From positions 310,001-374,000 of the forward strand of contig JASANG010001881.1 in NCBI GenBank assembly GCA_030248215.1: DNA of 64,000 bases, in the 5' to 3' direction. The DNA is from Enoplolaimus lenunculus (lineage: Eukaryota). Under the pieces are notes generated by a model that was not told the DNA's origin, did no database searches, and saw nothing but the letters and a program-made list of their open reading frames with translations. Shown here piece by piece: positions 1,161 to 25,165 of this stretch; within the stretch, counting starts at the first letter, position 1; each line of letters starts with the position of its first letter. A program made the translations under genes and the position numbers.

Positions 1161-1343
1161 CTGAACAAAACGGCAACTGACTATCGTAACCGCCACTGCT
1201 GGTACAAGCTGAAGACGCAACTCCAACGAGAAAATAATCCGTTTGACAACTGAAGCTCACCGAGATTCCATCGTAGACTTCGGTTTGCGTCGGTCCAATA
1301 TAATTCCAAGCGCCATATGGAATATTGGGATTAGGACAGATTT
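1161..1343 (-). CDS. Sushi/CCP exon 11 (most 3' exon found in the window)
   Basis: gtttcag acceptor and GTGAAA donor; 183 nt, phase 1-1; ICPNPNIPYGAWNYIGPTQTEVYDGISVSFSCQTDYFLVGVASSACTSSGGYDSQLPFCS with the 4-Cys CCP pattern. Ends on a donor, so the gene continues leftwards. Confidence 0.9.
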
Positions 1344-1734
1344 CTGAAACATTTTTATCAATAAAGCCTAAGAGTGCCGTATGCCCGTAGCCAGCTCACC
1401 TTGCTTGGTAGGCTAAAACATTTTCAAGAAGGGCATACAAGGGTTTTCGTTGACTTACAAACAAGGTTGATAATTTTCTAAGGCGGGGCAAAGTTCAGCT
1501 AAACAAAGTTAATTTATTGAAGTTATTTTGACAAATTTTACTCATCACATGATGGAAGCAGAAATTTATTAATTTAAAACAATTAAATTACGAAAAATTC
1601 AAATTTGGGTATGGAATGATTAGCACTGTTCGTCGTAAGCTCAAATCAACAATTTTCAAAATACGACAATTTTTGGCAATCGCTAGCTGACAGACTATAG
1701 TCAAAAGTCCGTTTTGCTAAAGGATATTTCATAC

Positions 1735-1911
1735 TTAAACAACTCGGAGCCGGAACATCGTACAGTCCAGATTGTTGACAAATCAATGTTGAACTTCCGT
1801 TCATGTGATATCCCGCGTCGCATGTGTACGTCGCATTCTCCGGATTTATTATCGGTGATCCGCTGACGACAAAATTTCCATTACTCACCGTGTCCGGTGT
1901 CGGGCAAATGG
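1735..1911 (-). CDS. Sushi/CCP exon 10
   Basis: ttgcag/GTATGA; 177 nt, phase 1-1; ICPTPDTVSNGNFVVSGSPIINPENATYTCDAGYHMNGSSTLICQQSGLYDVPAPSCL. Confidence 0.92.
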
Positions 1912-2337
1912 CTGCAATCAAATCATAAAATTAATAATAAAACTGTAATAAATAAATTAGGAAATAAATAACGATGAAAGCGTTAACGTTGACTTAGATA
2001 CGCAGATGTATAATTTAGATAAAGCAATTGAACAAATATCAAACAGCATTCGAACAAGCCTTAGGGTAGCTCTAACGTCCGGCGTCGTCCGGCATCCGTA
2101 CGGCGTCGTCCGTCATTCGTACGGCGCCATCCGTCACCGTCATGCACCATACCGCCCCGTAACGCACACAGATGCATGACGGTGCACGGGTAACAAACGG
2201 TGCCGTACGACAAGTATAGCGCAACCCTATCCATTCCAGTTTCTAAGTCTTCCAATCTCTAAGTCCCCAGTCCTTAAGTCCCACAGTCCCTAAGTCCGTC
2301 AGTCCACCCCTCTCCGTTCCAGGGATCAAAAACGAAC

Positions 2338-2517
2338 CTTCACACGTTGGAGCGGCATAATCAAAGGTGCGATCCGTCAGACACGTAAGCACAGACTGGC
2401 CGACTAAATGAAATCCGCTATTGCATGTGTATGTAATGGTGTCGTTCGTTATTACTGGTGAAGAACTTTGTACCGGTGCCGCTGCGTTAGCAACTGTCGG
2501 AATATTGTCACAAATTC
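2338..2517 (-). CDS. Sushi/CCP exon 9
   Basis: ttttag/GTTCGT; 180 nt, phase 1-1; ICDNIPTVANAAAPVQSSSPVITNDTITYTCNSGFHLVGQSVLTCLTDRTFDYAAPTCE (not in ORF track). Confidence 0.9.
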
Positions 2518-3135
2518 CTAAAAAAATTAAATTTTCAATAATAAAATTTGATGCAATTAAATTTTTTCAAAAAAATTTCTAACCGTTCCTAAATTAGTGA
2601 ACTTGTCCCGGGTTTTGGAGCTGAAGGTACGGAATCTGAACCCGTTTAGGAATTAAATGAAGAGTAGCTTAAACTACATTGCTGGGCGAGTTGAGTTCAA
2701 CGGTACCATTTGTATGGTTGTATGACCAACGGTTCAAAAGTTACGACCAACGAAATTATAGTGCAAACAGGTTTGAAGGAAAAGTATCAATCACTCACAT
2801 ATTCGTAAGATGTAATCGTTACAAGGTTTATTCCTTAAACAAATTTGGTAGGCGGCTGTGTATGTTTTATATGGTAAAAAGTTAAAATATAATCTGCAAC
2901 ACCTTTTGAATCAGAGCCCTGCTGTTCTAATAATGGTACGCTAAACTCAGCTTGTCAAAATCTATAAAATAAGCCACTTTTCATTAAATTTCTAAAGGGG
3001 TCCATATTTAGTGCCTCCACCGTCTTTGGTTAGTTTCCTGTTGCCATGCAAACTCGCAATACGGGATTCGTTTGGTCCATAAGATGTTTGATTAAGTAAA
3101 AGGATTGCGTCGAATATAAAATAAACCATACATAC

Positions 3136-3324
3136 CTTTACACTCGGGTGCCAAATTGTCATATGTTCCACCACTTAGGCAAATCAGGGTTTGAACCCCA
3201 ACCAAATGATAATTAACGTTGCACTGATATGTGACGTCAATGCCGTCATAGATCGGAACCGACGAATCGCTATGAGACGGAGTCCACGTTCCTTGAGTGA
3301 TTGTCGTTGGTGCTGGACATTTCA
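3136..3324 (-). CDS. Sushi/CCP exon 8
   Basis: tttcag/GTATGT; 189 nt, phase 1-1; KCPAPTTITQGTWTPSHSDSSVPIYDGIDVTYQCNVNYHLVGVQTLICLSGGTYDNLAPECK. Confidence 0.92.
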
Positions 3325-3594
3325 CTGAAAATATCACAGAAAAAACGAATCAGCGGGCGGATCGAGTATATTCCGGTTGAAGAGGATAATTTTCTGACGA
3401 TTTTAATGTGGCAAATGTTATAATTTGTGAATTTTGATACGAAATTTTGATGATTTTCCGATAATTTAGAATGTTTTTGTTAAAATTAAATTTTCAAACT
3501 GATTGGCTTTTCAGCTTTAATAATTTACGATTTCCAGCTTTAGCGTTGGCCTGTCCACCCCTGGTTAAAAGAATTAATTGAAAAGTAAACTCAC

Positions 3595-3771
3595 GTTTAC
3601 AGACTGGTTCGGCGAAATCATATGTTCCATCAATTCCACAGGTTAACGTTGCTGTGCCTACCAGGTGGTACCCGGAATTACAAGCGTACGCAACGGTAAC
3701 TCCATCTATGATGTCGCCGGATGTACTTGGAGTTACCGTACCCTGTACGAGGCTGGGATTTGGACAGATTT
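3595..3771 (-). CDS. Sushi/CCP exon 7
   Basis: tttcag/GTGAGT; 177 nt, phase 1-1; ICPNPSLVQGTVTPSTSGDIIDGVTVAYACNSGYHLVGTATLTCGIDGTYDFAEPVCK. Confidence 0.92.
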
Positions 3772-4878
3772 CTGAAAAAATCAGATTGCAGTAGTATTTA
3801 AAACAATTGTATTTATGATTAAGTCTAACCTTTTCTCGCATGAATATTTTCTATTTTATACGAAAGATCGAATTTGAAGCTATGCTTCAAGCCAGAAACT
3901 ATTTGTTATGAGGCGCTCACAATCACTGCGGGACATAAACTGTTTTACACACGAGAAGTAAAGGCTCTCACGTCTTGTAGAGATTTTGTACTACACATAT
4001 ATACGCGCATTAATAATAAACATTGAGTATTGCGTATTATTCTGCGTACGTTTTCACTGAATTCCTATCTGCATCAAGCACGTAACCAGCTCACCTTGCT
4101 AGGGGGGCTAAAAATTTTTCAAGAGGAGCATTCAAGAGATTTTAACGACTTACATGCAAGGTTGAAAATTTTGTAGGGGGCCAAAATTTTTCCGGGGAGC
4201 TGAGCCCGCCTGCCCCCCCCCCTTTGGCTACGGGCCAGCATAGCATGTAGGAACAAATTAACACGTCCTTAATTTGTTATAAATCATCGAAAAACGGAAG
4301 GAATTAATAAGAATATAAAGGTAGAATCAGTAGATGCGTGCTTGACATAGCTTTACTGGAGAAACAAATCGTTAAATAACTGAAACTAGTCAGCAGGCTT
4401 TGCGCAATGCGTAAAAATTAACAAATCCGCAACAATCTGCATGCAAATTTTTTTTACACTAAACAATCACATTTCTGTTCTGAGAAAATACTGTAAACAA
4501 AGTCATAGTGAAAAATTGCTCAAAATGCGTATGTGGGGCGTTCCAGCTTTAATAATATAGTTATAATAAAACATAGAGCAGATTTTATCTAATTGCTAGG
4601 AAACGTCTGTTTTACAAAAAACGAGATGAACAACAATAAAAACAAGGTGAATGCTGGTATTCGATCCGGGTCGATGTTGCGGAGTGCGCTTTGTTTCGGT
4701 TTTGCCAAATTGTTTTTACTCGGAGGTGGAAACTGTTTCGATAAGGTACGGAAAATGAAAATTGGAGTAATTTGCATATTTCGATACGTCAGATTGGTAT
4801 GCTTTTGCACAGTCATTTGGTAATTTTGTCACTTCCAAAACAGTATGCTTTATCTGAAAAATGTTTGTCTTAATATAC

Positions 4879-5158
4879 GGCTCATGTATAGAACAGGGCC
4901 GGAACAGTAGTATAACCATATTCCTGAGCCTAAGCCTAAGCGTATGGATGAGCCTATTCCTAAACCTAAGCCTAAGCCTAAGCGTATGGATGAGCCTATT
5001 CCTAAACCTAAGCCTAAGCCTAAGCGTATGGATGAGCCTATTCCTAAACCTAAGCCTAAGCCTAAGCGTATGGATGAGCCTATTCCTAAACCTAAGCCTA
5101 AGCCTAAGCGTATGGATGAGCCTATTCATAAGCCTAAGCCTTGTTCTATACATGGGCC
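4879..5158. mobile_element. Family A MITE (GGCCCATGTA termini, 8-bp TSD) with internal TTAGGC-derived 42-bp tandem expansion
   Basis: TIR ggctcatgtatagaaca...ttctatacatgggcc; TSD taatatac/taatttac; other copies at 22756-22941, 28432-28615, about 30068-30268, 32875-33143, 33896-34039, 50664-50824, 57427-57588. Confidence 0.85.
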
Positions 5159-5271
5159 TAATTTACAGTATTACTTATATAATTTCTCGTATACGGGATT
5201 TAGGACTCTCGTAGAAAACGCAATCACTGCTAACTACTCAGAGTAACAATTTGAGAACAACTAATACTAAC

Positions 5272-5448
5272 TTTTACACGTTGGACCCGCCAAATCGTAC
5301 GAGTTGCCACTTTGACACGTCAGCATCGCGGCACCAACCAAACTGTATCCGGTATTGCAAGAATACGCCACTGTCACTCCGTTAATTATCGGCGACCCAG
5401 ACGCAGTGGACGTTCCATCCAGGATCGACGGCGGAGTTGGACAAATTT
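5272..5448 (-). CDS. Sushi/CCP exon 6
   Basis: ttttag/GTTAGT; 177 nt, phase 1-1; ICPTPPSILDGTSTASGSPIINGVTVAYSCNTGYSLVGAAMLTCQSGNSYDLAGPTCK (not in ORF track). Confidence 0.9.
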
Positions 5449-6800
5449 CTAAAATAATTCATTCATCATTTCCGTACAAACGACGATTTACTCAAACGAC
5501 AATTAATGCTTAAATTAAGGACATCAACCATGCATTGGTTTATGCAGTGTTCATACTTTGCAGTTAAATTTTCGATTGCCTACTTTATGAATTAAAAATA
5601 AAAAACGGAGGGCAGACTGATATTTATTTGACCTCTCTACAGGGAACCCCCTTTGTTATTCGGTTACGGACTGTTATTTATTTTTAAACCCGCCCTCCGC
5701 CGCCTTTGCTAGTACTACACCCATTCTATGTCATTTTCTGGATTTCCCCTTTCAAAAAAGTTTGTACCTGTGTTATATTTTTGAGCCGTATAGACCTAAT
5801 TAGGGTTTAGGGCCTCTATGCGCTTACGGACTCTTATTAGGGATACAAACTCCTATGAAATGGGACTCAAAATGGGGACCACACTCTTATTACCCATCCT
5901 CTTCCTCCTATTCGGGTTACTACAGTAGGGTCATTTGTGATTTTGAGATCTTTTAGTTTACATTTGAATGAAATACAGATCGTTGGACGAACACACTGCC
6001 ACTGCGCCACGCAACCGGCCAGTTCGGCTGCAGTTTATCGTGGTCCATATATGATAACGTGTGCTATCGAGATTCATATTGTGAACGATACATATATGGA
6101 TAGAAAAACATAAGTTGTAAATTTTTGGTTTACGCGAAAAAAACCAGCATGATAACCAACATTTCAACAGGAAATATTAACCGGAACCTATTAAACAGGA
6201 ATTGATTTTTGCAGGAATTCCGGTTGGAACAAAAATTACAAGTGGAACCGTGGCTAGGAACTGTTGTGAGTGGTTTGACTTTATTAACTGATGATTTGTT
6301 ATACAACATGACCCATGTTACTTTTAGGGCCGTCCCGGTTTCTGGTGGGTCTGTAAAACAGTAGGCTTAACGTACACCTCGCATTGATTGAGTAGGGTGG
6401 TATGATCACCTTTTATTTTGCAATCAAAACCACTGCCGTCCTCAGAACTTCCTCCATTTCGAAACCCGTCAACTCATCGAAATTTTTATTAATGTTTTTA
6501 CACGGCACACCCAAGTTCATTTTGTTTTTATTGAATTTGGCCAATGTTACTTTTAGGGCTGTAACAGTAGATTAAGCGTATTCCTAAGCCAAAGCCTAAG
6601 CGTTGCAAAAGGCGTATTTCTAACATTAAGCCTGAGCCTGAGCAAAAATGTAGTCTACAATATAAATCTACTCTCTTACAGTGACCCAACAGAAACCGGG
6701 ACGGCCCTAAAAGTAACATGGACCTTTATGCCAATTAAGCCGTTTGTTTGAGCAGTTGAACACCAACTCTTTGACATTCACTCGTGGTACAACGAATTAC

Positions 6801-6974
6801 TTTCACAAACAGGAGCCGCTAAGTTAAAACTTCGATCAGCTTGGCAAGTCAGTACATTATTGCCAACCAAATGATACCCAGAATGACACGTGTAAGTCAC
6901 AGTGATGTCTGTAATAATTGGACTGCCAGAAGCAGTTGTGTCTGCATTGGCCACAGATACAATTGAACAAATTC
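6801..6974 (-). CDS. Sushi/CCP exon 5
   Basis: tttcag/GTAATT; 174 nt, phase 1-1; ICSIVSVANADTTASGSPIITDITVTYTCHSGYHLVGNNVLTCQADRSFNLAAPVCE. Confidence 0.92.
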
Positions 6975-7061
6975 CTGAAAAACACAAAGTTCATTTTCAA
7001 TACGCAAAATTGTTATTTTGGTTCAGGCTAATCGTTAGGTTTAGAAATAAAGCTTAGCGAT

Positions 7062-7970
7062 AAACCTGAATTTATGCAATTTCCTAAACCTTAGCCTGAA
7101 TTTAAGCCATTTCCTAAACCTAAGCCTGAATTTAAGCCATTTCCTAAACCTTAGCCTGAATTTAAGCCATTTCCTAAACCTAAGCCTGAATTTAAACCAT
7201 TTCCTAAACCTTAGCCTGAATTTAAGCCATTTCCTAAACCTTAGCCTGAATTTAAGCCATTTCCTAAACCTAAGCCTGAATTTAAGCCATTTCCTAAACC
7301 TAAGCCTGAATTTAAGCCATTTCATAAACCTAAGCCTGAATTTAAGCCATTTCCTTAACCTAAGCCTGAATTTAAGCCATTTCCTAAACCTAAGCCTGAA
7401 TTTAAGCCATTTCATAAACCTAAGCCTGAATTTAAGCCATTTCCTAAACCTAAGCTTGAATTTAAGCCATTTCCTAAACCTTAGTCTGAATTTAAGCCAT
7501 TTCCTAAACCTAAGCCTGAATTTAAGCCATTTCCTAAACCTAAGCCTGAATTTAAGCCATTTCCTAAACCTAAGCCTGAATTTAAGCCATTTCATAAACC
7601 TAAGCCTGAATTTAAGCCATTTCCTAAACCTAAGCCTGAATTTAAGCCATTTCCTAAACCTAAGCCTGAATTTAAGCCATTTCATAAACCTAAGCCTGAA
7701 TTTAAGCCATTTCCTAAACCTAAGCCTGAATTTAAGCCATTTCATAAACCTAAGCCTGAATTTAAGCCATTTCCTAAACCTAAGCCTGAATTTAAGCCAT
7801 TTCCTAAACCTTAGCCTGAATTTAAGCCATTTCCTAAACCTAAGCCTGAATTTAAGCCATTTCCTAAACCTAAGCCTGAATTTAAGCCATTTCCTAAACC
7901 TAAGCCTGAATTTAAGCCATTTCATAAACCTAAGCCTGAATTTAAGCCATTTCCTAAACCTAAGCCTAAG
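7062..7970. repeat. 30-bp minisatellite TTCCTAAACCTAAGCCTGAATTTAAGCCAT (about 30 copies), telomere-hexamer derived
   Basis: Highly homogeneous direct tandem units inside a Sushi-gene intron. Confidence 0.97.
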
Positions 7971-8726
7971 CTTTATGTGTAAGTCTTAACCTTAAATTTT
8001 GGAGAGGAAATGTACCAGAGGCTAAAAATTTTGTCGTTTTTGCTAAATTCTGGTATTTTGATTGTGTCTTGCTTTATTTTTGTTTCGATTTTTTTGCTAT
8101 TTGTGTTTTCTATTTTTTATTCTTTTCTGCTTATCTTTGCAATGGAGCGAGCACAAAGTAACTATGTAGCCAAGGCGGAACCAGCCGGGCGTCGCAGGGC
8201 GGTACTTCTCATCAGAACGCTCAACCTTGCAAATGCTTACTGTTGCGATGTTCATGCAAGCTTTGTTCAGATACGTAATGTCGGCCCCAAGACTCATAGG
8301 CGGATCCAAAAATTTACGACGGGTGGCGGGTTGGAAAATATTATGAAACGCAAAAATTGTAAAGTAGGGACCTTATGATTTTATCACCAATACATTTTCT
8401 GAGGTTGAAAATGGTAAGGTACACCTTACCATTTTTTAAAAAAAACTCAGAGAAAAAATGACAATTCTTACAAAATGATTTTCTGAGAGAAAAATTGTGA
8501 CGTAGGTACCTTACCATTTTATCACAAAAAATTTTCTGACGGGGGAGCGTACGCCTCCCGCCCATCCCCCTCAGGATCCGCAGTGCAACACTGGTCACTT
8601 AAAAATTTTGAAGAGATATTTCTTATGCTACCAACTGAATAAGCGCTACCCCCCGCAGGCAAAAATTCCAAAACTATGGTGACCCCTGATTACCGTGACC
8701 TACGTCCTTGAAAAGGATCCACAAAC

Positions 8727-8909
8727 CTTTGCATACAGGAGCATTGTTATCATACAGACCATTCGACAAACATGTCAATACACTACTCACACCAACCAAA
8801 TGATAATTTGCATTACAACTGTATGTTGCAGTATCTCCTTCAATTACAGGACTGCTACCGGATAATGTGTATTGACCATTTGAAACAGCTGCCGGATTCG
8901 GACACGTTT
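8727..8909 (-). CDS. Sushi/CCP exon 4
   Basis: ttttag/GTTTGT; 183 nt, phase 1-1; TCPNPAAVSNGQYTLSGSSPVIEGDTATYSCNANYHLVGVSSVLTCLSNGLYDNNAPVCK. Confidence 0.9.
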
Positions 8910-9465
8910 CTAAAATTAAAACATCTTTTAAGTATAGATTTTAGCCGTAAACACTAGTATAAGCAAATTCGTAAGCCTATAGCCTAAGCGTTAAACCTAA
9001 CAAAGCCTTGGTCCCACATTCTCAAATGCATATAGCACCTATTAGCAGTTAGTAATAGGTTTTCAAACTAACGAACTGGTGTAATTACAGATCTCAAAAT
9101 TTGCACAGTAGCAGAGAAAACCAACTGCAATAAATGTGCTCAATTTCAAACCTCACTATTCCCTGCTTCGAAAGTTTCAAGGCCTATCGCCAACTGGTAA
9201 TTGGTGTTACACACATTTGAGAATATGAGCTAAGGTCTACGCAAACAATAGTCTAAAGCTTGCGTTTACTCTGTTGTAGTTCCGCGGAGAAACTGTTCGT
9301 CGCTCAGCTGATTTAAAAATTAAAGAAAAATACTACGCACACAAAAATTAGAACAAAAAACAATTAAATGTAACAAATAAATTTGCTTGCAAGCGCTGCT
9401 CAGATTATAACATAGCGATAAGTATACACACGACACACGAATATGATTTTAGTATTTTGGATATT

Positions 9466-9745
9466 TGGACCTAAAAGTACCTCCTGTTATAAAAATCCGA
9501 CCTAAAAGTAACTCCTGTTATTGAAATTGGACCTAAAAGTACCGCCTGTTATAAAAATCGGACCTAAAAGTAACTCCTGTTATTAAAATTGGACCTAAAA
9601 GTACCGCCTGTTATAAAAATCGGACCTAAAAGTAACTCCTGTTATTAAAATTGGACCTAATTGTACCTCCTGTTATAAAATTTCGAACCTAAAAGTAAAT
9701 CCTATTATTTATATTGGACCTAAAAGTAACTCATGTTATTAAAAT
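9466..9745. repeat. About 29-bp tandem repeat (GGACCTAAAAGTA-CTCCTGTTAT) with alternating dimer structure
   Basis: About 9-10 direct copies alternating gtacc/gtaac variants. Confidence 0.9.
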
Positions 9746-10165
9746 TTAAGGTTGCCAATTTTAGAAGCTATTTATATTAGGAAGAAAGAATTAAGCTTAA
9801 ATATTTAAAATAATTATGTTTTCTTTAAACTTTTCAGTAATTCCACTGTTTAATTTGGGTATGTATTGCGTCTGGTATATTAATTTTATATTAACCAATA
9901 TAAATGATGTTTACTAAATTCAGCCAATGTTACTTTTAGGAGCGAAACAGTAGACTAAGCGTATTTCTAAGGTTAAGCCTAAGCCTAAGGCTAAGCGAAA
10001 AAATGTAATCAAGAATATAAACCTACTCTTTTATAGACCCACCAGAAACCTGGACGCCACTAAAAGTAACTTGGGCCTCTATGAATATATACTTTTAGGC
10101 GACCACGGCCTTCTTCTTTCCTGTTATTATCTGGAACCAGGCAATACACAGACTTGAAAACTTTA

Positions 10166-10387
10166 GGGCCCATATTCTCAAATGTGTATAGCAACTATCA
10201 TCAGTTAGTAATAGATTTTCAAACTCACTTACTATTGCAGTTGTAGAAATTAAAATTGGCACAAGAGTGGAGCAAATCATATGCGAAAATTGTGCTAAAT
10301 TTTAAATTTCAGCATTCACTGGTTTCAAAGTTACAAGACCTATCGCCAACTGCTATTAGGTGCTACACACATTTGAGAATACGGGCC
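10166..10387. mobile_element. Family C MITE (GGCCCATATTCTCAAAT termini)
   Basis: TIR ggcccatattctcaaatgtgt...acacatttgagaatacgggcc; copies at about 9010-9230, 19795-20010, 30474-30695, 61552-61776. Confidence 0.8.
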
Positions 10388-10497
10388 TTGACTTCGTTCT
10401 AAACAGATATACGCTAATCACGCAGCCAACGCAAGCTTAGCAAAGAATTGCAATTGACTGCATCTGGTTGCAAAGGTTTTATGCCGTTCGCTCGTAC

Positions 10498-10677
10498 TTT
10501 TGCACAGTGGATAATTGTAATTGTACGTTCCGCTTGAAGTACACTGCAGTACAGTCGCTCCAACCAATAGATATCCTGCATTGCACGAATACGTTGCAGT
10601 AACACCGTCATATACGGTCCCTGATTGGCTGTATGATGCGGCTCCGTTGGCAACGCTTGGAACATATGGGCAAATTG
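10498..10677 (-). CDS. Sushi/CCP exon 3
   Basis: ttttaag (AAG) acceptor and GTACGA donor; 180 nt, phase 1-1; ICPYVPSVANGAASYSQSGTVYDGVTATYSCNAGYLLVGATVLQCTSSGTYNYNYPLCK. Confidence 0.88.
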
Positions 10678-11852: not shown

Positions 11853-12017
11853 CTTTACAAAGCGGATACCCGTTCATACCAGTATCAGAACAAGTGGACG
11901 TTGCACTGCCGACCAGATAATAATTCGTATTGCACGTCCATGTAACTGATTGTCCCGAATAAATTGTGCCCGTTGGACTACGCGATCCATAGGAGACCGA
12001 TGACACCGTACAGATTT
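11853..12017 (-). CDS. Sushi/CCP exon 2
   Basis: gtacag/GTAAGA; 165 nt, phase 1-1; ICTVSSVSYGSRSPTGTIYSGQSVTWTCNTNYYLVGSATSTCSDTGMNGYPLCK. Confidence 0.9.
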
Positions 12018-12256
12018 CTGTACGAAATAATAATATAAATTAGTAAAACTGGAACGCTCACGATACGTATTTTGGGCATCGTTTAAACTCTTAGTTGTAT
12101 ATATCATCATGTAAACACGAGTCAATGTCACTATCAGGGCTGTAACAGTAGTATTACAAGCATATTCTAACGCCTAAGTTTCAGAGTAAAGATGAGTCTA
12201 TAAATAAGACTACGCCTAAGTTTAGACTAAAGCAAAAAATGTAGTCTAAAGCTTAA

Positions 12257-13326: not shown

Positions 13327-13494
13327 TTTTGCAAGCTGGTGCATTAATTGCTAAATTATATCGACACAACGGCTGGGATTCGCCGACTAATGCGTATCCA
13401 GAGTTGCAACTGTACGTAACCGGCATTCCAATAACCACCGGCGTTCGAGGGACCGAATATGTCCCGTATGAAATTGACGGAACGCTACACGTTT
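13327..13494 (-). CDS. Sushi/CCP exon 1
   Basis: tttcag/GTAAAT; 168 nt, phase 1-1; TCSVPSISYGTYSVPRTPVVIGMPVTYSCNSGYALVGESQPLCRYNLAINAPACK. Confidence 0.88.
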
Positions 13495-14064: not shown

Positions 14065-14184
14065 GTGTCGAATCACTACAACGGACATGAACGAATCCAA
14101 GGGTGCACGCGCATGTGTGACAATGCGAAGAATACGCAAGATAGTTATACGTAGTCGTACATGGGTAATCTTGTAGACTAAAAT
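14065..14184 (-). CDS. Cys-rich linker exon before the Sushi array
   Basis: tttcag/GTTAGT; 120 nt, phase 1-1; FSLQDYPCTTTYNYLAYSSHCHTCACTLGFVHVRCSDST; in frame with both neighbours. Confidence 0.75.
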
Positions 14185-15544: not shown

Positions 15545-15746
15545 ATGTTCCGCTTGGTATTGTACGATCGAACCAGTATGTAACATAAGAATTTGATGGG
15601 AAATATACTCCTTTACACGATGTGGTTGCACAAATACTATTAAATGTTGCCGTAGAAGTATCACAAACATAGCCAAAAGGCACAACGCTGCTATCATAGC
15701 ACTTTAGCCGCCCTTCGTCCCAATATGTTGAAAATTCCATTGCCAT
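15545..15746 (-). CDS. Cys-containing exon of unrecognised domain between SRCR and Sushi array
   Basis: Strong GTAAGT donor (phase 1); MAMEFSTYWDEGRLKCYDSSVVPFGYVCDTSTATFNSICATTSCKGVYFPSNSYVTYWFDRTIPSGT. The 5' boundary is uncertain: GAG acceptor at 15747 (phase 0) or CAG at 15815 (phase 1). Confidence 0.7.
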
Positions 15747-15923
15747 CTCAAACAAAAAACTCAAATTATTTAAAAATATCATTTTTTGCATTAAAATAAA
15801 AATCTTTTTATTTCCTGTAATACAATTCGTCAACTGTGTCAGAACTGCACGGTCGGGACGACCCCTGTCTCAGAAGTAGTGCGAATATACATAGTTTTTC
15901 CACATAATTTCTCCAAAACATAT

Positions 15924-15995
15924 GGCCACGCCGGCAATCGAACGTCGGACCTCTCGCTTGCGAGTCAAGCGCGCTACCCATTGCACCACGCTGCC
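15924..15995 (-). mobile_element. tRNA-derived SINE head or pseudo-tRNA
   Basis: GGCAGCGTGGTGCAATGGGTAGCGCG...GTTCGATTGCCGGCGTGGCC has A- and B-box-like motifs but mismatched acceptor and anticodon stems. Confidence 0.6.
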
Positions 15996-16580
15996 GGTAT
16001 TATAATTTTCTCTAATACTATAAGTGCAGGTGTATGCATGTGTCTTACATTACATTAACTATGCACATAAGCTACAAACACATATACCAACAACCCGGAC
16101 AACTCGTCGCCCGGCTGCTTTTTAAAATTTACTCATAAGCATAGTTCTAAGCCTAAGCCTAAGCATAATTATTGGCGACAAATTGTCGAATCAACAACCA
16201 GTTTTCGAATTACAAGTTATCGGTCGGCGAGTTGTCAGGCAACGAATTGTCGCGCTCAATAATGATCTGGGTCAAGTAGACTAAGCAGTCAAAGCTACAT
16301 TTACCTGCAACTTTGGTTATGTCAAAGCCCAAATTTTGACGGAATTTTAACTCGGTGCATGTGTGGTTGCTCAAATTTAATGGTTTCTGTTCAGAGTGAA
16401 ATTTGCATCAAAATACTTAGCTAATATATTTTAAAATTACACTTTAGTTTCTGTGTACAGAGCTGACGTTTACTCAAAAATGGTTCAATTTTGAAATTTT
16501 TTTGCATATTTGAGCTTCTGAAGACTGTTTTATGATCCTTGCAACAGCTGGTTATTTTGAGTATTATAGTTTTAGCTTAC

Positions 16581-16597
16581 CTCATTGTGAAAATAAT
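16581..16597 (-). CDS. Candidate 17-nt micro-exon (YFHNE) bridging phase 1 to phase 0
   Basis: ttatttcag acceptor and GTAAGC donor; restores frame between the SRCR exon (ends phase 1) and the 15746 exon (phase 0). Confidence 0.45.
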
Positions 16598-18278
16598 CTG
16601 AAATAAGCAGTAGTAGAAATAAATATTTTTGCAACAATCGTGTACCCACAGCTTAAATTGGTAAAAGCCTGGCCAAAAAGCATAAAATATTGACAAATTA
16701 GCAAAGGCGAGTGTAGGATTTCCCGGTATGGGAGGATGCTTTTGGTGTTCTGACTAATGAAAACAAAACTGGAATATATTTGAATTGATCTCGTGCTCAC
16801 TAAAAATGTACTTAAAATTAAGTAAAACTTGCCGAATTTACTTACTATGGTGCTTGGCACAGTTTTACTTAACTTTAGCAAACATAAAATTCTTAGCTTT
16901 ACATTTACTTAATTGCATTATTTAGGCAAACATTTACTCAATATTTAGTACACTTATACTTAAAGAAGTTAGTAAAATAAAACTAAAGTATTTTAAGTAG
17001 TTTTTACAGAGTACTAAACAATGTGCACCCGTATATTGTCCAGATATTTCCATGACAAAGCTTTTCACATCATTTGAAGTTCTACGTTTCGAAATATGCT
17101 CAGTGTCGTTTTCGACACCCTGGTGCTTTAAAGCATAATTTTAGTAATTTTTGATATTCTTATATTGACTAATTGCGTTGAAGGTGCAAATTTCTTAAAT
17201 TCTATTTTTGTAAACCTTCACATATTTTTCATCTATTTGGCTAAAATAACCATTATGTAACCTTCCAATAAACCGTTTGTATCGCAAACTTTCAGCAAAT
17301 GTAGGCCGGTGGGGGGATAATTTCCTCATACCCCACTGGATCTACCACTGCCTATTAATATAGAACAGACAGATGGTGAACGTTAATTAAATGCGATGAA
17401 CGATGCTTATATCTGACGCTGGCAAAATGTGTTTGGATCGTAGAAGGGTGCATGGCTCGTTGTTCTCACAGTACGTCCCATATTTCCAATAAAAATGGAA
17501 AGCATATTTGTTATATAGGCTTAGATTTCTAAACTGCCAGATTTCTAGCTAAAATAACTAAATATAATAGAAAACTTTTACCGATAAAAAGACTCTTTTC
17601 CGAAAAAATAAAAAAATTGCTTATGTCAGCAAAGGAGGGCCTGCTTACTAAGCCTAAGCTTAAACATATGCGTAGTTGTAAGTCTAAGACTAAACCTAAG
17701 TCTAAGCCTAGTATAGTCGCTAAGTAGCCTAGTCTTGGTAGTCGCTAAGTAGCCTAGTCTTGGTAGTCGCTAAGTAGCCTAGTCCTGGTGTCTCCAAATG
17801 GATGTTCCCGTATAATTTACACGGGTCAAACACTGGTGCCTATCATTCCGCTGTGGAAAATTTAGTATATACTTCTGAACAGATCTAAACTCTCAAGCAA
17901 TATGCACATGTGCAAGTTTTTGCTGCGAGAATTTGCAGCTGCAACTTGCATTTGCAAGATTTGTCCAAAATACCGTTCGAAAAACTTGCAGCTGCAAGTA
18001 ATTCATCATCAAATCATAGCCAAGAATTTAGTTCACGTGTGTGAACAACCATGCAAGTTCACTGAATTTATTGCAGCCGTTTTTTCATTGGCTGATGAAC
18101 AAATGCAAGTTCTCGCAGCAAAAACTTGCACGTGTGGGTAGGGCTTTATTGATACAATTTGTAAGCTGACTGAAATATTGTAAATTATGTAACATTAAAA
18201 ATAATCGAATTAAGTATTAATACTAAAATTAATTTAATTTTAAACTTTTTGAAAAAAAAAGAAAAAATAATCACTAAC

Positions 18279-18398
18279 TGTTGTGACATACAACTCCAGC
18301 GCTGGTTGAACACGAAAGCGGACCCCATCCGCCGTGTGGACACTGAAATAACCGACTTTCAGTGCCTGCACATTGAAGATTTGTCATCCAGGTGGTGG
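18279..18398 (-). CDS. SRCR domain, C-terminal exon
   Basis: ttttcag/GTTAGT; 120 nt, phase 1-1; TTWMTNLQCAGTESRLFQCPHGGWGPLSCSTSAGVVCHN matches the SRCR W-xx-x-C-x-G-x-E-xx-L-xx-C...GWG...C...AGVxC pattern. Confidence 0.9.
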
Positions 18399-19045
18399 CT
18401 GAAAACAGCGTAATAAATCTGATACGGGTCGACCCAACCGCGGATATTTAACTAAGTCATTCTCTCATGTTTTAGGACAAACTAGAGACACTTTATAATA
18501 ATTGCCGGTTAGCCAGAAACCTAAACCTAAGACTAAGGCTAAACCAAGCAAAGATAATAGTCGAAAGCTTAAACTTGTTCTATTCTAGTCCCACAGAAAA
18601 ACTCTCCGCCCCTGATCTTTACATGCACCAACATATTTTTGGGATTCGCGTACAAGGGTTATGACTTTTACAAGCCAGGTTGAAAATTTTCCAGGGTGTA
18701 TTTCTTCTAAAGAGGATGGATTCCACGCATGAGAAATATACTTTTTTAGTCTTTAACCTACTGTATCCTGCATCCAACCTGTTTTATCTATTTTAGTGTA
18801 ATGATACATTTATTTTCGAATGAGGGTGTACTCTGTGCCGACGTTGGCACCCCCTACCGGAATGCTTTTAAAAGTAGTGATAAGCTTTAGTAAAAACTAT
18901 ACGACTGACAGTATTCGCTTAAATCAACGTTTCGTTTTGCTTGATTATGCTCATTCGCAAAAACATCTCTTAGTATTAACGTTGTTATACCCTGCCCTAA
19001 GCAAAATGCTGGCTACGTTTCGATCGACTCGAGTTCAAAACATAC

Positions 19046-19223
19046 AAGCAGGCGTCCCGTAAAAGTTGCCCACGTGCGCCGTTGTTGCGCCAGCGAATCC
19101 CAACTGACGACACGCAACTTTTGCATCGTTTATGTCCCAGCCCAAATCGCACACTTTGCCCCATATCCCATCGATAAATATTTCAAGGTTGCCTTCGAAT
19201 CCACTTCCACCAATCAGTCGAAG
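19046..19223 (-). CDS. SRCR domain, N-terminal exon
   Basis: attttag/GTATGT; 178 nt, phase 0-1; LRLIGGSGFEGNLEIFIDGIWGKVCDLGWDINDAKVACRQLGFAGATTAHVGNFYGTPA matches the canonical SRCR signature (not in ORF track). Confidence 0.93.
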
Positions 19224-19241
19224 CTAAAATTAGGCAACAAT

Positions 19242-19606
19242 GGCTGGGTTTCAAAAATGTTACTTAAGTATTTACTTAAGCTATGCTTAAGTAATTTCAT
19301 ACGTCGCTGACTTGAGCAAATATTTAAGTTTTCGAACAAAACAGGTAAACGCCAGATGTGAGCAGTTGTCATAACAAAAAAGTAACAGTTTTGATTTATG
19401 TTAAGGAGGCACCACGAGCCTGCAATTTCAGTTGGACCATGTTTTGTATACCTGAACGGTTAATTTGTAATCTATCACATTTAGTCAGTGGCTTAAGTGT
19501 TTACTTAACTTAGGTACGCTTTTAAAACCGACAAAAAGGCTAAGTAATTACTTAGCCCGTACTTAAGTATCAAGTGATATTTAAGTAGGGTTTCAGGAAA
19601 CCAGCC
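19242..19606. mobile_element. MITE with GGCTGGGTTTC termini filling the intron 5' of the SRCR exon
   Basis: ggctgggtttc...gaaaccagcc; homologous copy at about 32119-32465 and partial copy at about 14298-14600. Confidence 0.75.
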
Positions 19607-21896
19607 AATATTTTACCATTTGTTGTTTGTGTAGCACATATCGGAAGTAACATCAACAGTGTATGATGTCGTTGTTTTATGTCCAACTGGGTACATTCTG
19701 TGTTCAAGACAACTAATCCAGCGGAAGTTGTGTTTTGGCCACGCCTCTCCACTTATTTAGAGGGGCAAACATTGCAGGACTACGGAGTCAATACGGGATC
19801 GTAATCTCAAATTTGTGCAGCATCTATTACCAGTTGGTGATAAACCCTGTAGGTTTGGAACTTTGATTGTTAAATTTTAAAATTGAGCAGAAGTTTCGCA
19901 TTTGGTCGACTTCTGTGCCAATTTTTAGGTACCCAATTGCAAGAGTTGCTCAGTTTGAACACCTATCACTAACTGCTGATAGGCGCTATGCGCATTTGAG
20001 AATCGGGGCCAAGTTTCCAAGCAAATGCGTCTATAACCCGGCTGCCCTTCACCTAATACCGGATTAGCCTAAAGCACAGTTTTACTAATCAAAAACCTTA
20101 CGTCACCGTTTATCAGAAGCTGGGTACCGTCCATCACCCGTACGGCGCCTTCTATCACCCGTACGACGCCGGCCGTCACCGTCATCAGCGTTATCGTACG
20201 AGAGTTATTTGCGTACGATACCGCACGATAGCGGACGGCGCCGTACGAGTAACGGACAGAGCCATATGGGTGACGGATAGCGCCGGGCGGCGCCACACGT
20301 CAATAAAAGCATGTATATAGCCAAACCCTAAGTATTGAACCTTTAATATTGCACAATAGACTTTATTCACTGGTTCGAAAGCTACAACACCAATACGCAT
20401 TTAATGCAGACTTGAAATATACCGTATACACACTGCACTATGCTTTCAATTTGATCCTGATGCGTATACAAGGGACCATCGAGAGGATATTCCCCTGTCG
20501 AAATATATAGAGACAAGAAAAAAATTATACGGTTTTAGCAGACTCTCGAATAACCACAACGGATCCTAAAAATCGAAAAAAGTTATGAATTTGAAATTAT
20601 GCCTTCCAGAACTAAAATCACGGTTATGGCCCTACTTTCAATAGTCTGTAGATGAGCCAAATTTGAAACAATTTCAGCTAAACTGCGATTAATTGTTAAA
20701 ATTGCACGTTTTATTTGCTGAATACTGCATAAAACTTGCAAATTTGCAATTTCATGCATTCAAGCATGCATGATATTCGACTATGCAACTCTTGGAATCT
20801 CGCACGATACAAAATGTACCCGGTACGCTGTGGGTGTTTGGCCGACCACCTTTATTTTGAGGGGGCACGCCTTGTGCGAACCATGGACTATATGTATCAG
20901 GCATCAACACTGCGCCGTTTACAGTTTAATTTAGAGTTATTGCATGTGACAGCGACAACAATCTAAATACGGGGACGGAAGGTCAAAAACGCAACGCCCG
21001 GTGGCACATTTTGTACCATTTGAAACCTCGAGAGTTGCATATTCTTTTATCATGCACTCTTGTGATTTTGTAGAGATTTCATTTTTGCATCTGTACTGGC
21101 GCAAGATAAAGTGGATCATGCATTTTACTTACCGTACATTCAAGATACGCTGAAAAACATAAAATATCAACAGCTCTTGTACGCTTCCATCCACAGGGAA
21201 CCGGCTTTAGGTTTAGGCTCATGCCTTGGAATTGGTTCAGGTTCCATAGATAACTTACGTAAACGTAAACCTAAACGTGAACCTAAACTTTATCTAAGCC
21301 AAAGCTTGAGCCTAAGACTAACTCAAATCCTTGACTGTAAGTGGACTGGAAAGGTTGGCTTTTCCTGATTCTAGTCGTAATTTTAAAAACTGATTTGGTT
21401 ACGTTTTTACGAGCTGTAAGATTCATTTTTTATTGCAGTCAGCTAAATAACATACTTAAATTAATATTGGTGTAAAAATTATTCAACGATGCAAAACCAT
21501 GATTTTGACGTATACACGTCGGCTTTTATACCAATTTCACAGAATAAATTAATTTTTTCGATCGTAACAAAATTACAAAATGTGTCATGTAGACTTAGAA
21601 AATTACTTATATTGAAAACATTACCTAAGTTTTAAACATTACTGAAATTTAAATAAATTAATTAAATTTAAGAAGTGACTTAAATTTAAAAAATTACTTA
21701 AATTAAAAAATAATTAAATATAAAACATACTTAAATTTTAAAAAATAATTTACATATAAAAATTACTTAAATTTAAAAAATTAAATATAAAAATACTTAA
21801 ATTTTAAAAAATAATTTTACATAGAAAAATTACTTAAATTTACAAAATTAATTAAATATAAAAAATACATAACTTTACAAAAATATATATTTTTAC

Positions 21897-21978
21897 CAAA
21901 TCGTTTCGATCGGGTATGAGGTTCTTCCCATGAATGCGGTCCTGTGTAGTTATCGTAGTAGTTGTCTTGCATGTAAAC
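21897..21978 (-). CDS. Probable exon 4 of the DEG/ENaC-like gene
   Basis: tttttag/GTAAAA; 82 nt GC-richer island in AT-rich DNA; phase 0-1 reading VYMQDNYYDNYTGPHSWEEPHTRSKRF, with an RxKR site. Confidence 0.55.
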
Positions 21979-23366
21979 CTAAAAACAAAACAATACAGCA
22001 TTTAATAGTAACACAACACTTTAAAAAAAATCTTGGTCAGCCGCGGGTTCTGGCATTCCTCACAGTTAATTATCTCGAATTTTAACAAAACAGAATACAT
22101 TCTTAATACAAAAACTGCTATTTTTCCGCGTTTGCATGTACCATGGCCCCGACACCAGAGCCTCAAAGCCTCACCCAATCTCTATTTTTGAAGTTTTTAC
22201 GTAAACAAATTTCTGAATTCGAAGCCACGGGTTATGTAGCGAGGTTGAAGCTAGACGTATGCTTGTGTTAAATCTTACGGTAAAAGCAAGCTTTCAATTT
22301 TGAGCACCGTAACTTTGGTCTCACTGTCGACGAAACCTGGTGAGGGAACCGAACAAGAAGCATATGTGGTTTTACATGGAATCTCTTGGCGAAGCTTCAA
22401 TTCAGAAATCCATTTATATATTCATATGCTGCAATTTTCGCGTTTTTCGGACATATAATGTGTCCTGGTAGACATATACACACGGTCACTGTTAATGTGT
22501 TGCATGAAAATTAGTTACTTACATGTCATCTAAAAACGTTATTTTATACCATAATCGTTTAATATTTTTCCATCTATTTCCATTTTTTTCCATTCCCCGC
22601 GAAAAAAATAAAAAAATGGAAAAAATCCATTTTCCGGTAATTTTTTTCCGGCCAACAAGCCTGCATGCAAGTGCATATGAGGCAAATTTCAAATAAGCTA
22701 AAAGTGTCTCTTTAAGACTGATTTTATATGGAGCCAAAGTTTTAGTAATCGAAGCGGCCCATGTACTTAACAGGGCCGGATCGTTTTCCGGCGGGCTGTA
22801 ATAGAGTCAGTATAAACTTTAGACTAACGCTTATGCTTAGGCTTAGGATTAGGCTTAGCAATATGCTCATCCTTGCGCTTAGGCTTAGGCTTAGCAATAT
22901 GCTTCATACTACCTGTTCTGGCCCTGTTCTATACATCGGCCATGGAAGCAGACCTCTTTAGGCCTTATATATTTGGCTACGTATAAGGCTGTTTCACAAA
23001 TTCTGACCTTACGAAATTGTACTTTATGAACAAATGCCTAATCTACGACAAAGGGTACAGCAGCGTAGGGGGCAGGTACATCCTATCATTTTTGAAATGA
23101 AAAAAGTTTGCATAAATGGAAAGTGTCACTAAAAAATAGCATCGATCCTACCTTTCACAAATAGTTAAAATTGCGTTTAACTTTTCGCTCGCTTCGCTAA
23201 CAGGGCGTATTCCAGCATATCACGCATCAGCGTATGTGGGGGATTGAATCATTAGATTAACTGCTGATACCCTTGTCTGCAACCGATGCTGACTATTAAT
23301 TTCACAAATTTAGCATGGAATCCTAAATTGAAATGTTAAAAAATTATATTTCGAACATTTTTTTAC

Positions 23367-23608
23367 ATTTTGACTAAACTGCTTATCGAATTCATAGTTG
23401 TGCAATTTCAAATTGCGATTATTTGCAATAATTGTACGATTTGTTGCCATTGCAGTGGTGCGAACATCCTCAGCGACAGATGCAACTGATGGAAAACGTT
23501 GGTCAACAACAACCGCAACATTGGCAGTCGGACTTTGGCTGATACCAGTTCGACGATGGACCCGCTTAATCCGATCAAATCGGCTTGTTTGTTTCCATTC
23601 GGCTAATT
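23367..23608 (-). CDS. Probable exon 3 of the DEG/ENaC-like gene
   Basis: gttcag acceptor (in-frame alternative at 23633) and GTAAAA donor; phase 1-0; LAEWKQTSRFDRIKRVHRRTGISQSPTANVAVVVDQRF...YEFDKQFSQN. Confidence 0.5.
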
Positions 23609-24091
23609 CTGAACACAACACAATATTATTAGCTGGGTTGTAGAGACATGACTTATGTGGCCCATGATGTAAAAATCAGGGGTGGAACGTTTTTCTATCG
23701 CACTAGAAAAGTGCAAGCTTAAGCTTTAGACTAATTTTTTCGCTTGGCTTAGGCTTAGGCTTACGCTTACGCTTTGGAATATGCTTATAGGGCCCATGTT
23801 ACTTCAAGGGGCGTCCACATTTCTGGTGGGTCTGTAAAAGAGTAGGTTTAGATTCTATATTACATTTTTTGGTTAGGCTTAGGTTTAGGAACACATTTTT
23901 ACAACGCTTAGGCTTAGGTTTACGCGTAGTCTACTGTTACGCCCCTAATAGTAACATTGGCCGCAATCTGCATGGAAATTTTGTTTCCACAAAACAATCA
24001 CATTTGTGTTTTGAAAAAATATTGTAAACAAAGTAATGCTGGAAAGTTGCCCACAGGCATAAATGCAAATCAAACCCGCAAAATTGAGCAC

Positions 24092-24179
24092 CTGCAGTGA
24101 AATCAGCTGCATTTTGACGCTTTTTTCGAGTTCTGTTTCGATTCATCATGTCTTTTTCCATACTTTCATATGCAGCTTT
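24092..24179 (-). CDS. DEG/ENaC-like gene exon 2
   Basis: tttgtag/GTGCTC; phase 0-1; KAAYESMEKDMMNRNRTRKKRQNAADFTA, with an RKKR furin-type site as found in the finger region of ENaC/degenerins. Confidence 0.75.
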
Positions 24180-24883
24180 CTACAAAATACTCGTAGAAAA
24201 AATTGGTCAGTTTTTACAGTTTCCCCAGTTGTCAACACTTTTACATTTTGAATTAACTTATGCATCGTTTACAATTAAAAATTTCATTTTGTCACCAAAA
24301 ACATTATAAGGTAGCGTTAACACGTGTCAATTTTGAAAATTGTCATGAGTTAACCCTACGCCTATTAACCCTTCCATAGCACATGTCACAGCCCAATCCT
24401 AATATGTGTCACAGAGCATTTTATAACACGCGTTATGGTAAGGTTAACGCGAATTTTACGTTATGGTAGGGTTAACGTATGATAATTTTAAAATATGACA
24501 CGTGTTAACCCTATCTTATAATGTTTTCAGTGGCAAAATGAAATTTTTTATCGTCAACGATGCATTATAGAATTGATTGGTACGGGATTGGATTAGCATT
24601 AGCCTTGGCTCAGACTTAGGATCAGGCATGGGTTTGGACGTAGGTTTATTACGCTTGTTGAGGAAAGTGTACAAAAGACTAAACAATGTCAGCTGCCCGC
24701 AGTGATATACGACAATTTATCACAGACAACGATTACAGTTTCAATGTAATTGTTTGCACATCGATTCGCTTTTAGCTGTAATATACACGCAAAAGTTAGC
24801 TAAAATGATGCTTAAAATACGTATGTTGAGCGTTCCAGGTTTAAAACACAGATGATTGTCCACCAGGTCAAATTTAAACTTAC

Positions 24884-25165
24884 CAAAGCCGCAAGTGCAG
24901 GAACTTTGCCCATTTCGTTGTTTTTAATCGCATTCAAATTGCATACGGTTACCGCCGGAAACGGAACCGTACCGCCATCAAGATCATTATTGACAAATAC
25001 CGGTTTTCCGGTATAAGTATTGTAAATTTTTGAAAATGTAATAATTACATAGCTAGCCGACGCCGCAAATATCAGTAACCATGCCACTTTTTGGATCCAA
25101 GACGGAACTGACAGGGCAAGATATAGGCCGTGAATGGAAATATCTTGCCCAACAAACAGTGTCAT
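24884..25165 (-). CDS. DEG/ENaC (amiloride-sensitive channel family) N-terminal exon: HG motif, TM1, FPAVTVCN
   Basis: MTLFVGQDISIHG...KVAWLLIFAASASYVIITFSKIYNTYTGKPV...VPFPAVTVCNLNAIK; GTAAGT donor, phase 0. Start codon uncertain (in-frame TAA just upstream). Confidence 0.9.

What the first reader, a model, noticed from the sequence alone, without database searches (positions are those of the whole stretch)
1161..25165. Possible DEG/ENaC channel with an SRCR domain and at least 11 Sushi repeats inserted in its ectodomain
Seen: a clear DEG/ENaC N-terminus (HG, TM1, FPAVTVCN) ends on a donor. It is followed on the same strand by frame-compatible exons carrying basic RxKR sites (RKKR, RIKR, RSKR), then an SRCR domain, a Cys linker and 11 CCP exons. 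I found no ENaC palm/thumb/TM2 exon between 24 kb and the window edge, and no signal-peptide exon for a separate SRCR-Sushi gene. Established: the region after FPxVTxCN is the hypervariable finger, where nematode degenerins carry extra Cys-rich domains, and C. elegans EGAS proteins combine EGF repeats with an ASC domain. Inference: this is one gene encoding a channel subunit with a very long SRCR+CCP tether or ligand-binding arm, with the rest of the channel left of the window. I do not know of this architecture being described. The splice path between 21.1 and 19.2 kb is not resolved.
Basis: partly seen in the sequence, partly recalled or inferred. Interest (0 to 1): 0.9.

Follow-up and report, generated by a model that had tools for sequence, protein, structure and literature searches.

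The report
Sodium channel with Sushi-repeat tether arm
In a nematode-like genome, the front half of an ENaC/degenerin sodium channel gene is predicted to splice straight into a scavenger-receptor domain and at least 11 complement-type Sushi repeats, likely making a channel with a long built-in tether arm, but the channel's back half would lie beyond the available sequence and is unseen.

Summary
All parts are real: a DEG/ENaC N-terminal exon (Pfam ASC positions 4-87, E 9.5e-16), a two-exon SRCR domain and 11 Sushi exons, plus a strong acceptor for a likely 12th exon at position 4. This gives a 21-exon, stop-free path of 1,100 aa whose only hydrophobic helix is ENaC TM1. A splice model trained on other exons picked the same three linking exons. 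The first RxKR site sits where related channels have theirs, and two Panagrolaimus channels carry about 800-900 aa between beta2 and the palm motif. No credible separate signal peptide was found. Not shown: any transcript, any homologue with ASC plus Sushi or SRCR, and the channel's C-terminal half, which is absent from the window (no genome held). Best reading (0.55): one complete channel subunit whose finger carries a furin-released SRCR head on a Sushi stalk that tethers or clusters the channel. Rivals: a TM1-anchored receptor without a pore (0.2), or two genes (0.2). The scan had not noted this architecture on other DNA.

The parts
24884..25165 (-). Exon 1: DEG/ENaC N-terminus (HG, TM1, beta1, beta2 FPAVTVCN); phase-0 donor; start ATG at 25165 assumed
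   Evidence: Pfam ASC E 9.5e-16; PDB hits FaNaC1 and alpha-ENaC; the only AG inside the ORF upstream of the ATG scores -5.1
24092..24179 (-). Exon 2: finger helix and RKKR (phase 0 to 1); weak donor, alternative phase-1 donor at 24164
   Evidence: RKKR 35 aa after beta2, aligned with RxKR of homologues; acceptor 4.8, donor 1.2; alternative donor 5.0
23367..23608 (-). Exon 3: linker with RIKR (phase 1 to 0); donor uncertain (23367 or 23466); read-through frame stops near 23313
   Evidence: acceptor 11.6, donor 5.1; chosen by unsupervised chain; not repeat-covered
21897..21978 (-). Exon 4: Tyr/Asp-rich linker ending in RSKR (phase 0 to 1)
   Evidence: acceptor 12.0, donor 4.2; the chain search chose a later phase-1 donor, 21834, inside an AT-rich repeat
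21133..21149 (-). Exon 5: 17-nt micro-exon with one Cys (phase 1 to 0), joins SRCR directly
   Evidence: acceptor 13.9, donor 9.7
19046..19223 (-). SRCR domain, first exon (phase 0 to 1)
   Evidence: Pfam SRCR E 2.5e-13
18279..18398 (-). SRCR domain, second exon (phase 1 to 1); six Cys in the domain
   Evidence: Pfam SRCR E 3.6e-08; Cys list
16581..16597 (-). 17-nt micro-exon (phase 1 to 0) that restores the frame
15545..15746 (-). Cys-rich linker exon 1 (4 Cys), no family assigned
   Evidence: no significant Pfam or PDB match; single-sequence model pLDDT 58, all-beta
14065..14184 (-). Cys-rich linker exon 2 (5 Cys) ending in a C-x-C-x8-C, EGF-tail-like motif
   Evidence: 3 of 3 PDB hits are Spitz or Notch chains, E 3.7-5.2, not significant
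13327..13494 (-). Sushi 1 (phase 1-1)
11853..12017 (-). Sushi 2
10498..10677 (-). Sushi 3
8727..8909 (-). Sushi 4
6801..6974 (-). Sushi 5
5272..5448 (-). Sushi 6
3595..3771 (-). Sushi 7
3136..3324 (-). Sushi 8
2338..2517 (-). Sushi 9
1735..1911 (-). Sushi 10
1161..1343 (-). Sushi 11
1..4 (-). First four bases of a further exon, probably Sushi 12, cut by the window edge
   Evidence: acceptor 10.4; same first four bases as Sushi 5 and 9

Best explanation
This is likely one gene for a DEG/ENaC subunit whose finger loop carries an SRCR domain, a Cys-rich module and 11 or more Sushi repeats, with the channel's palm, thumb and TM2 predicted to follow left of the window. How it would work (inferred throughout): TM1 acts as the signal-anchor that takes the arm into the ER, where its disulfides form. 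A furin-type convertase cuts at the three R-x-K/R-R sites, all upstream of the SRCR domain, and releases the roughly 80-115 aa between them. The short TM1-beta1-beta2 piece stays in the trimer through the palm sheet and the beta2 cysteine. The long piece becomes a selectin-like stalk: SRCR head at the free tip, a Sushi rod of about 40-50 nm, the channel body at the base. The arm binds matrix or a partner-cell protein and so anchors or clusters the channel, and could pass pull to the finger-thumb gate. This builds into the subunit the job that LEV-9 or the MEC matrix proteins do in trans. Because the Sushi exons are all phase 1-1, arm length can vary, and phase-1 donors in exons 2-3 could give an armless isoform.
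For: Shown: stop-free path of 21 exons and 1,100 aa (1,067 with the other exon-3 donor). Three strong acceptors (11.6, 12.0, 13.9) lie between the ENaC and SRCR exons, scored by a model trained on 20+20 sites outside that stretch. An unsupervised phase-constrained search picked exons 3, 4 and 5 in all three settings; it was matched by 2, 0 and 2 of 60 plus-strand windows and by 0 of 21 intron-only windows (windows overlap). RKKR lies 35 aa after beta2; 16 of 76 homologues have RxKR within 50 aa, 15 of these at 25-44 aa. RSKR falls in the frame fixed by the SRCR exon; chance per 27-aa open window is 5 of 375 and 3 of 254. The 12 most hydrophobic windows all lie in TM1. Of six ATG-led hydrophobic segments, two have a phase-0 donor: one lies wholly in a dispersed repeat, one overlaps exon 2 in another frame. 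Panagrolaimus P0116 and P0117 carry 792 and 910 aa between beta2 and the palm motif and then complete the ASC domain. Exon 1 keeps the H, G, W, P, C, N, N positions that are invariant or nearly so in 18 full-length relatives; the following P is A, as in P0001. The Sushi exons differ most at third codon positions (0.49/0.40/0.65). From papers (passages): dual polybasic cleavage in ENaC (PMC8791634); CCP proteins LEV-9, Hig and Hasp cluster receptors (PMC9083331); matrix-tether model (PMC10148893).
Against: No C-terminal ASC exon in the window and no genome to look further. No protein with ASC plus Sushi or SRCR: 0 of 60 scanned ENaC hits (60 of 115), 0 of 2 long ASC proteins among 7,673 candidates, 0 of 79 Sushi hits, 0 of 30 nearest Atlas clusters for each of two stand-in homologues, 0 of 78 mostly short ENaC loci. 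The exon 2 donor is weak (1.2, below the leave-one-out minimum of 2.6). The exon 3 donor is ambiguous, its 3' part is AT-rich, and its frame runs on to a stop near 23313, so it could be a last exon. Exons 3-5 have no sequence homologue among the fetched proteins. Cleavage, binding partner and gating role are untested.
Confidence: 0.55

Rival explanations
1. One transcript but no pore: a truncated ENaC front end serves only as the type II membrane anchor of an SRCR-Sushi receptor or adhesion protein, whose ectodomain is shed at the furin-type sites.
For: All splice evidence for the join fits this too. No ASC C-terminal exon is visible. No homologue shows the full architecture.
Against: HG, beta1, beta2 and the beta2 Cys are kept; these need the C-terminal palm strands and partner Cys to fold (recalled from ASIC/ENaC structures). 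An anchor alone would be expected to drift.
Confidence: 0.2
2. Two genes in tandem: a small TM1-only DEG/ENaC piece ending in exon 3, and a separate SRCR-Sushi gene. The second may itself end in the channel's back half, making a split channel; or it may be nested in a long intron of an ordinary ENaC gene.
For: Exon 3 reads through to a stop near 23313. C. elegans has small ASC-domain membrane proteins (DEGL-1/-2) expressed in the same IL2 subtypes as EGAS proteins (PMC9478639 passages), and the EGAS primers in PMC10424705 encode hydrophobic, signal-like starts. A repeat-derived hydrophobic ATG segment at 22870 has a phase-0 donor scoring 5.0.
Against: That segment is 42 of 42 nt inside a dispersed repeat with look-alike peptides at three other places. 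An ATG start in exon 4 would give no signal peptide. The first poly(A)-type hexamer after the exon 3 stop is about 280 nt away, against about 70 nt after the TWK stop. RSKR and phase continuity would be coincidence. The structure of DEGL proteins was not seen.
Confidence: 0.2
3. Assembly chimera or decaying fusion with no product.
For: No reads could be laid to check the assembly; no close homologue (best 43% over 83 aa).
Against: No stop or frameshift in 21 exons; third-position excess among Sushi exons; even GC (33-40%) across the locus and the same repeat families on both sides.
Confidence: 0.05

Closest known systems
DEG/ENaC superfamily (Pfam ASC PF00858); nearest sequences are a 165-aa Romanomermis culicivorax fragment (P0001) and mollusc/amphioxus ENaC-like channels (P0003, P0005, P0011)
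   Same: HG, TM1, beta1-beta2 with Cys, then a helix and an RxKR site 25-44 aa later
   Different: Folded SRCR and Sushi modules follow; none of the 56 ASC-bearing hits among the 60 scanned has another Pfam domain; C-terminal half not seen
Panagrolaimus davidi long degenerins P0116 and P0117 (UniRef A0A914PEL8, A0A914PRE1)
   Same: Very long insert directly after an RFKR site in the finger, channel completed afterwards
   Different: Their insert is a Thr/Ser-rich mucin-like stalk with no Pfam domain
C. elegans EGAS-1 to -4 (EGF plus ASC)
   Same: Nematode DEG/ENaC with an added extracellular module (PMC9478639 passage); the linker here has a weak EGF-tail-like motif
   Different: EGF, not SRCR or Sushi; primer-encoded starts look like signal peptides, so TM1 is probably not retained in front (inferred; full sequences not seen); no currents as homomers in oocytes (PMC10424705 passage)
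Vertebrate ENaC alpha/gamma GRIP domain
   Same: Two or more polybasic sites in the finger region that could release a tract (PMC8791634 passages)
   Different: No inhibitory-tract homology tested; sites here sit in front of an arm of 860 aa or more
LEV-9, Hig, Hasp (secreted CCP scaffolds) and GABA-B R1a (two CCPs); selectins (head, EGF-like, SCR stalk)
   Same: Sushi arrays that localise or cluster receptors (PMC9083331 passages); head-on-stalk layout (PDB 4c16 title)
   Different: These are separate scaffolds, a GPCR or adhesion receptors, not part of a trimeric ion-channel subunit

Membership tests
DEG/ENaC subunit | N-terminal HG motif before TM1 | tested here: met
   HG at residues 12-13, aligned with relatives
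DEG/ENaC subunit | TM1 followed by beta1 and beta2 FPAVTxCN | tested here: met
   Pfam ASC 4-87, E 9.5e-16; hydropathy peak at residue 27; PDB hits
DEG/ENaC subunit | Palm/beta-ball with the GxCYTFN-type Cys and the Cys-rich thumb | not testable with these tools
   Absent from the window; the gene runs off the left edge; no genome
DEG/ENaC subunit | TM2 with GxS filter and degenerin site | not testable with these tools
   Same reason
DEG/ENaC subunit | Trimeric amiloride-sensitive cation current | not testable with these tools
   Needs the full cDNA and expression
EGAS (EGF plus ASC) | EGF domain(s) joined to ASC | tested here: not met
   No significant Pfam EGF match in the visible exons; only a non-significant EGF-tail-like motif
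EGAS (EGF plus ASC) | Signal-peptide-like start (inferred from published primers) | tested here: not met
   Starts with HG-TM1; no credible signal exon; primers seen
SRCR domain (PF00530) | About 100-aa domain with conserved Cys set | tested here: met
   Both halves above the cut-off; six Cys
Sushi/CCP repeat (PF00084) | About 60 aa, four Cys, CCP fold, phase 1-1 exons | tested here: met
   11 of 11 above the cut-off; four invariant Cys; pLDDT 95 and CCP matches with TM-score about 0.8
Proteolytically processed ENaC-type subunit | Paired polybasic sites in the finger that are actually cleaved | tested here: inconclusive
   Three R-x-K/R-R motifs present, the first positionally conserved; cleavage untested

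The most novel reading that the evidence does not exclude
A DEG/ENaC channel subunit with its own receptor arm: after furin processing each subunit presents an SRCR head on a rod of 12 or more Sushi repeats, joined covalently to the gating domains. It would be a single-protein version of the extracellular tether long proposed for mechanosensitive degenerins. It would also suggest reading the C. elegans DEGL plus EGAS pairs as the genetically split form of the same design.
Probability: 0.5. Interest if true: 0.78.

Novelty: new variant of a known kind. Interest (0 to 1): 0.62.

Why it matters
The tether model for DEG/ENaC force sensing lacks an identified physical link between channel and matrix (PMC10148893 passages). 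A subunit that carries a countable, exon-per-module rod with a binding head in its finger would make the idea directly testable: shorten, lengthen or leave the arm uncleaved, and measure localisation and current. It would also be an ion channel that has absorbed, by exon shuffling, the CCP scaffold that clusters other receptors in trans. Three of the paper searches (listings only) and the protein searches found no description of ASC with SRCR or Sushi. These searches were limited, and no domain-architecture index could be queried.

Tried and rejected
No whole genome held. No RNA holder listed, which is no evidence either way; no reads could be laid. Word search with exon 1 for longer proteins: 0 of 59 candidates. 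Metagenome scan with exon 1 alone: 0 of 375 stretches; with an alignment: 78 loci, 334 kb, none with Sushi, SRCR or linker matches at E 0.05, but most contigs are too short to show a distant arm. Candidate extra exons between 21.1 and 19.2 kb were dropped: 21095-21017 lies in an inverted-repeat element; 20493-20423 and the 20565 acceptor are not needed by phase and have weak partner sites. A 7-nt micro-exon at 22529-22523 (acceptor 5.9, donor 8.5) would force exon 4 into another frame without RSKR and remains unexplained. A WSC reading of exon 5 plus 20493-20423 and a C-type-lectin reading of the Cys linker (both recalled resemblances) got no support. The codon-usage scores are not used, because two of the training exons were read in the wrong frame. 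The Tyr/Asp-rich look of exon 4 resembles finger tracts of some relatives but was not tested statistically. The Atlas could not read the window's own exon; two stored homologues were used instead. The supplement of PMC9478639 could not be read; it may show DEGL and EGAS domain layouts. No complex prediction was run.
Full report
Setting. The window is intron-rich animal DNA, 37.5% GC, with TTTCAG-type acceptors and many TTAGGC-containing repeats (56 and 97 copies on the two strands; TTAGGC as the nematode telomere unit is recalled). The best protein match to exon 1 is a Romanomermis culicivorax fragment at 43% over 83 aa, so a nematode, perhaps a mermithid relative, is inferred. No genome is held.

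Observation. The ENaC exon matches Pfam ASC positions 4-87 (E 9.5e-16), the two SRCR exons match positions 3-49 and 59-100, and 11 of 11 Sushi candidates pass the curated cut-off. With a 17-nt micro-exon at 16597-16581, the 16 exons from SRCR to Sushi 11 give 863 aa without a stop. An acceptor scoring 10.4 at position 4 shows that the series continues. A profile from 25 full-length relatives found no other ASC exon among 3,256 ORFs on either strand; it recovered 36 of 90 control pieces, so a whole missing half would not have been overlooked. The upstream neighbour, a two-pore potassium channel gene, ends near 29302.

The join. A splice-site model trained on 20 acceptors and 20 donors from outside the contested stretch scores three acceptors there at 11.6, 12.0 and 13.9, against 16 sites of 10 or more on the whole 64-kb plus strand. 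The 17-nt exon at 21149-21133 has a donor of 9.7 in phase 0, and the SRCR acceptor is phase 0, so no further exon is needed. The resulting path has 21 exons, 1,100 aa, no stop and introns of 270-1,909 nt. A phase-constrained chain search, run under three settings, chose exons 3, 4 and 5 each time. It was matched by 2, 0 and 2 of 60 plus-strand windows and by 0 of 21 intron-only windows; the windows overlap, so these are not independent trials. The search preferred a later donor for exon 4 and twice added a 12-nt exon, both inside an AT-rich repeat. Weak points: the exon 2 donor scores 1.2 (an alternative phase-1 donor at 24164 scores 5.0 but would drop RKKR), and the exon 3 donor may be 23367 or 23466.

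Why the two ends belong together. From the ENaC side, RKKR falls 35 aa after beta2, where 15 of the 16 motif-bearing relatives (of 76 examined) have theirs (25-44 aa). From the SRCR side, the frame forced on exon 4 yields RSKR, which arises in about 1% of 27-aa open windows (5 of 375; 3 of 254). A disulfide-rich array needs an ER signal, and TM1 is the only hydrophobic helix in the path. Of six ATG-led hydrophobic segments between exon 1 and SRCR, the only plausible one lies entirely in a dispersed repeat. The site tolerates huge inserts: beta2-to-palm distances run from 18 to 910 aa in 23 relatives, and two Panagrolaimus proteins complete the channel after about 800-900 aa. I put the splice link at about 0.75-0.8 and the presence of a C-terminal half, given the link, at about 0.7.

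What was not found. No ASC plus Sushi or SRCR protein appeared in 60 of 115 representative hits scanned (56 ASC only, 2 without a family, 2 unrelated), in 2 long ASC proteins from 7,673 candidates, in 79 Sushi hits from 7,995 candidates, in 30 nearest Atlas clusters for each of two stand-ins, or in 78 metagenomic ENaC loci. This supports rarity but gives no independent confirmation of the fusion.

Mechanism (inferred). All three convertase motifs precede the SRCR domain (residues 112, 136 and 227, or 194 with the shorter exon 3). In vertebrate ENaC, double cleavage at such sites releases a tract and opens the channel (PMC8791634, passages). Here cleavage would also free the N-terminal end of the arm, turning a loop into a stalk with the SRCR domain at its tip, a layout like the lectin-EGF-SCR order of E-selectin (PDB title). 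At roughly 3.5-4 nm per module (recalled), 12 repeats reach 40-50 nm. CCP arrays cluster acetylcholine receptors (LEV-9, Hig, Hasp) and target GABA-B R1a (PMC9083331, passages), and degenerin mechanosensing is thought to need a matrix tether (PMC10148893, passages). I therefore favour an anchoring or clustering arm that may also transmit pull to the gate. Direct ligand gating through the SRCR head is less likely but not excluded.

Comparison. It works like a DEG/ENaC subunit with a mucin-type finger insert (P0116, P0117), but with folded adhesion modules. Membership of the family is met for the N-terminal features and untestable for the rest. It is not an EGAS protein: there is no significant EGF domain, and TM1 is retained, whereas the egas primers in PMC10424705 (passages and section 15) encode hydrophobic starts. 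The co-expression of small DEGL proteins with EGAS proteins in matching IL2 subtypes (PMC9478639, passages; supplement unreadable) raises the untested idea of a split channel, which is also a rival reading of this locus. Passages of PMC9822975 and bioRxiv 10.1101/2020.12.15.422897 added nothing on accessory domains. Ten paper searches were run; by their listings none describes ASC with Sushi or SRCR.

Verdict. Real features and a well-supported but unproven fusion, whose decisive half lies outside the data. New variant of a known kind; interest 0.62, or 0.78 if the C-terminal half is found in frame.

Noticed in passing
window ~35000-29302, minus strand: Two-pore (TWK-type) potassium channel gene, four Ion_trans_2 pieces (two above the Pfam cut-off), ending about 4.1 kb upstream of the ENaC exon on the same strand.
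   Followed up: partly
window 57932-58561 (-) and 61940-62419 (+): Divergent pair of paralogous exons, each with one hydrophobic stretch and no family assigned (25% identity, E 6e-09).
   Followed up: partly
window 55327-55710 (-), 52958-53293 (-), 56977-57399 (-): Cys-rich exons; 55327-55710 gives sub-cut-off matches to Salp15, Adt-1 and ADAMTS cysteine-rich models; possibly one gene with 57932-58561.
   Followed up: no
window 22529-22523, minus strand: Possible 7-nt micro-exon (acceptor 5.9, donor 8.5) that does not fit the best path; may be chance or an alternative splice.
   Followed up: partly
window 21149-21133 and 16597-16581: The SRCR domain is bracketed by two 17-nt micro-exons, both phase 1 to 0.
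   Followed up: partly
window 7044-7985, 4719-5162, 22754-22943 and others: TTAGGC-rich tandem and dispersed repeats that produce spurious long ORFs and signal-peptide-like peptides.
   Followed up: partly
L068:41-2920 and L073:23-2902: Single-ORF ENaC-like genes of 960 codons with long low-complexity stretches after beta2, further cases of long finger inserts.
   Followed up: no
P0116, P0117 (Panagrolaimus davidi): Degenerin-like proteins with a Thr/Ser-rich insert of about 750-880 aa after RFKR, named only 'Uncharacterized protein' by UniRef.
   Followed up: partly
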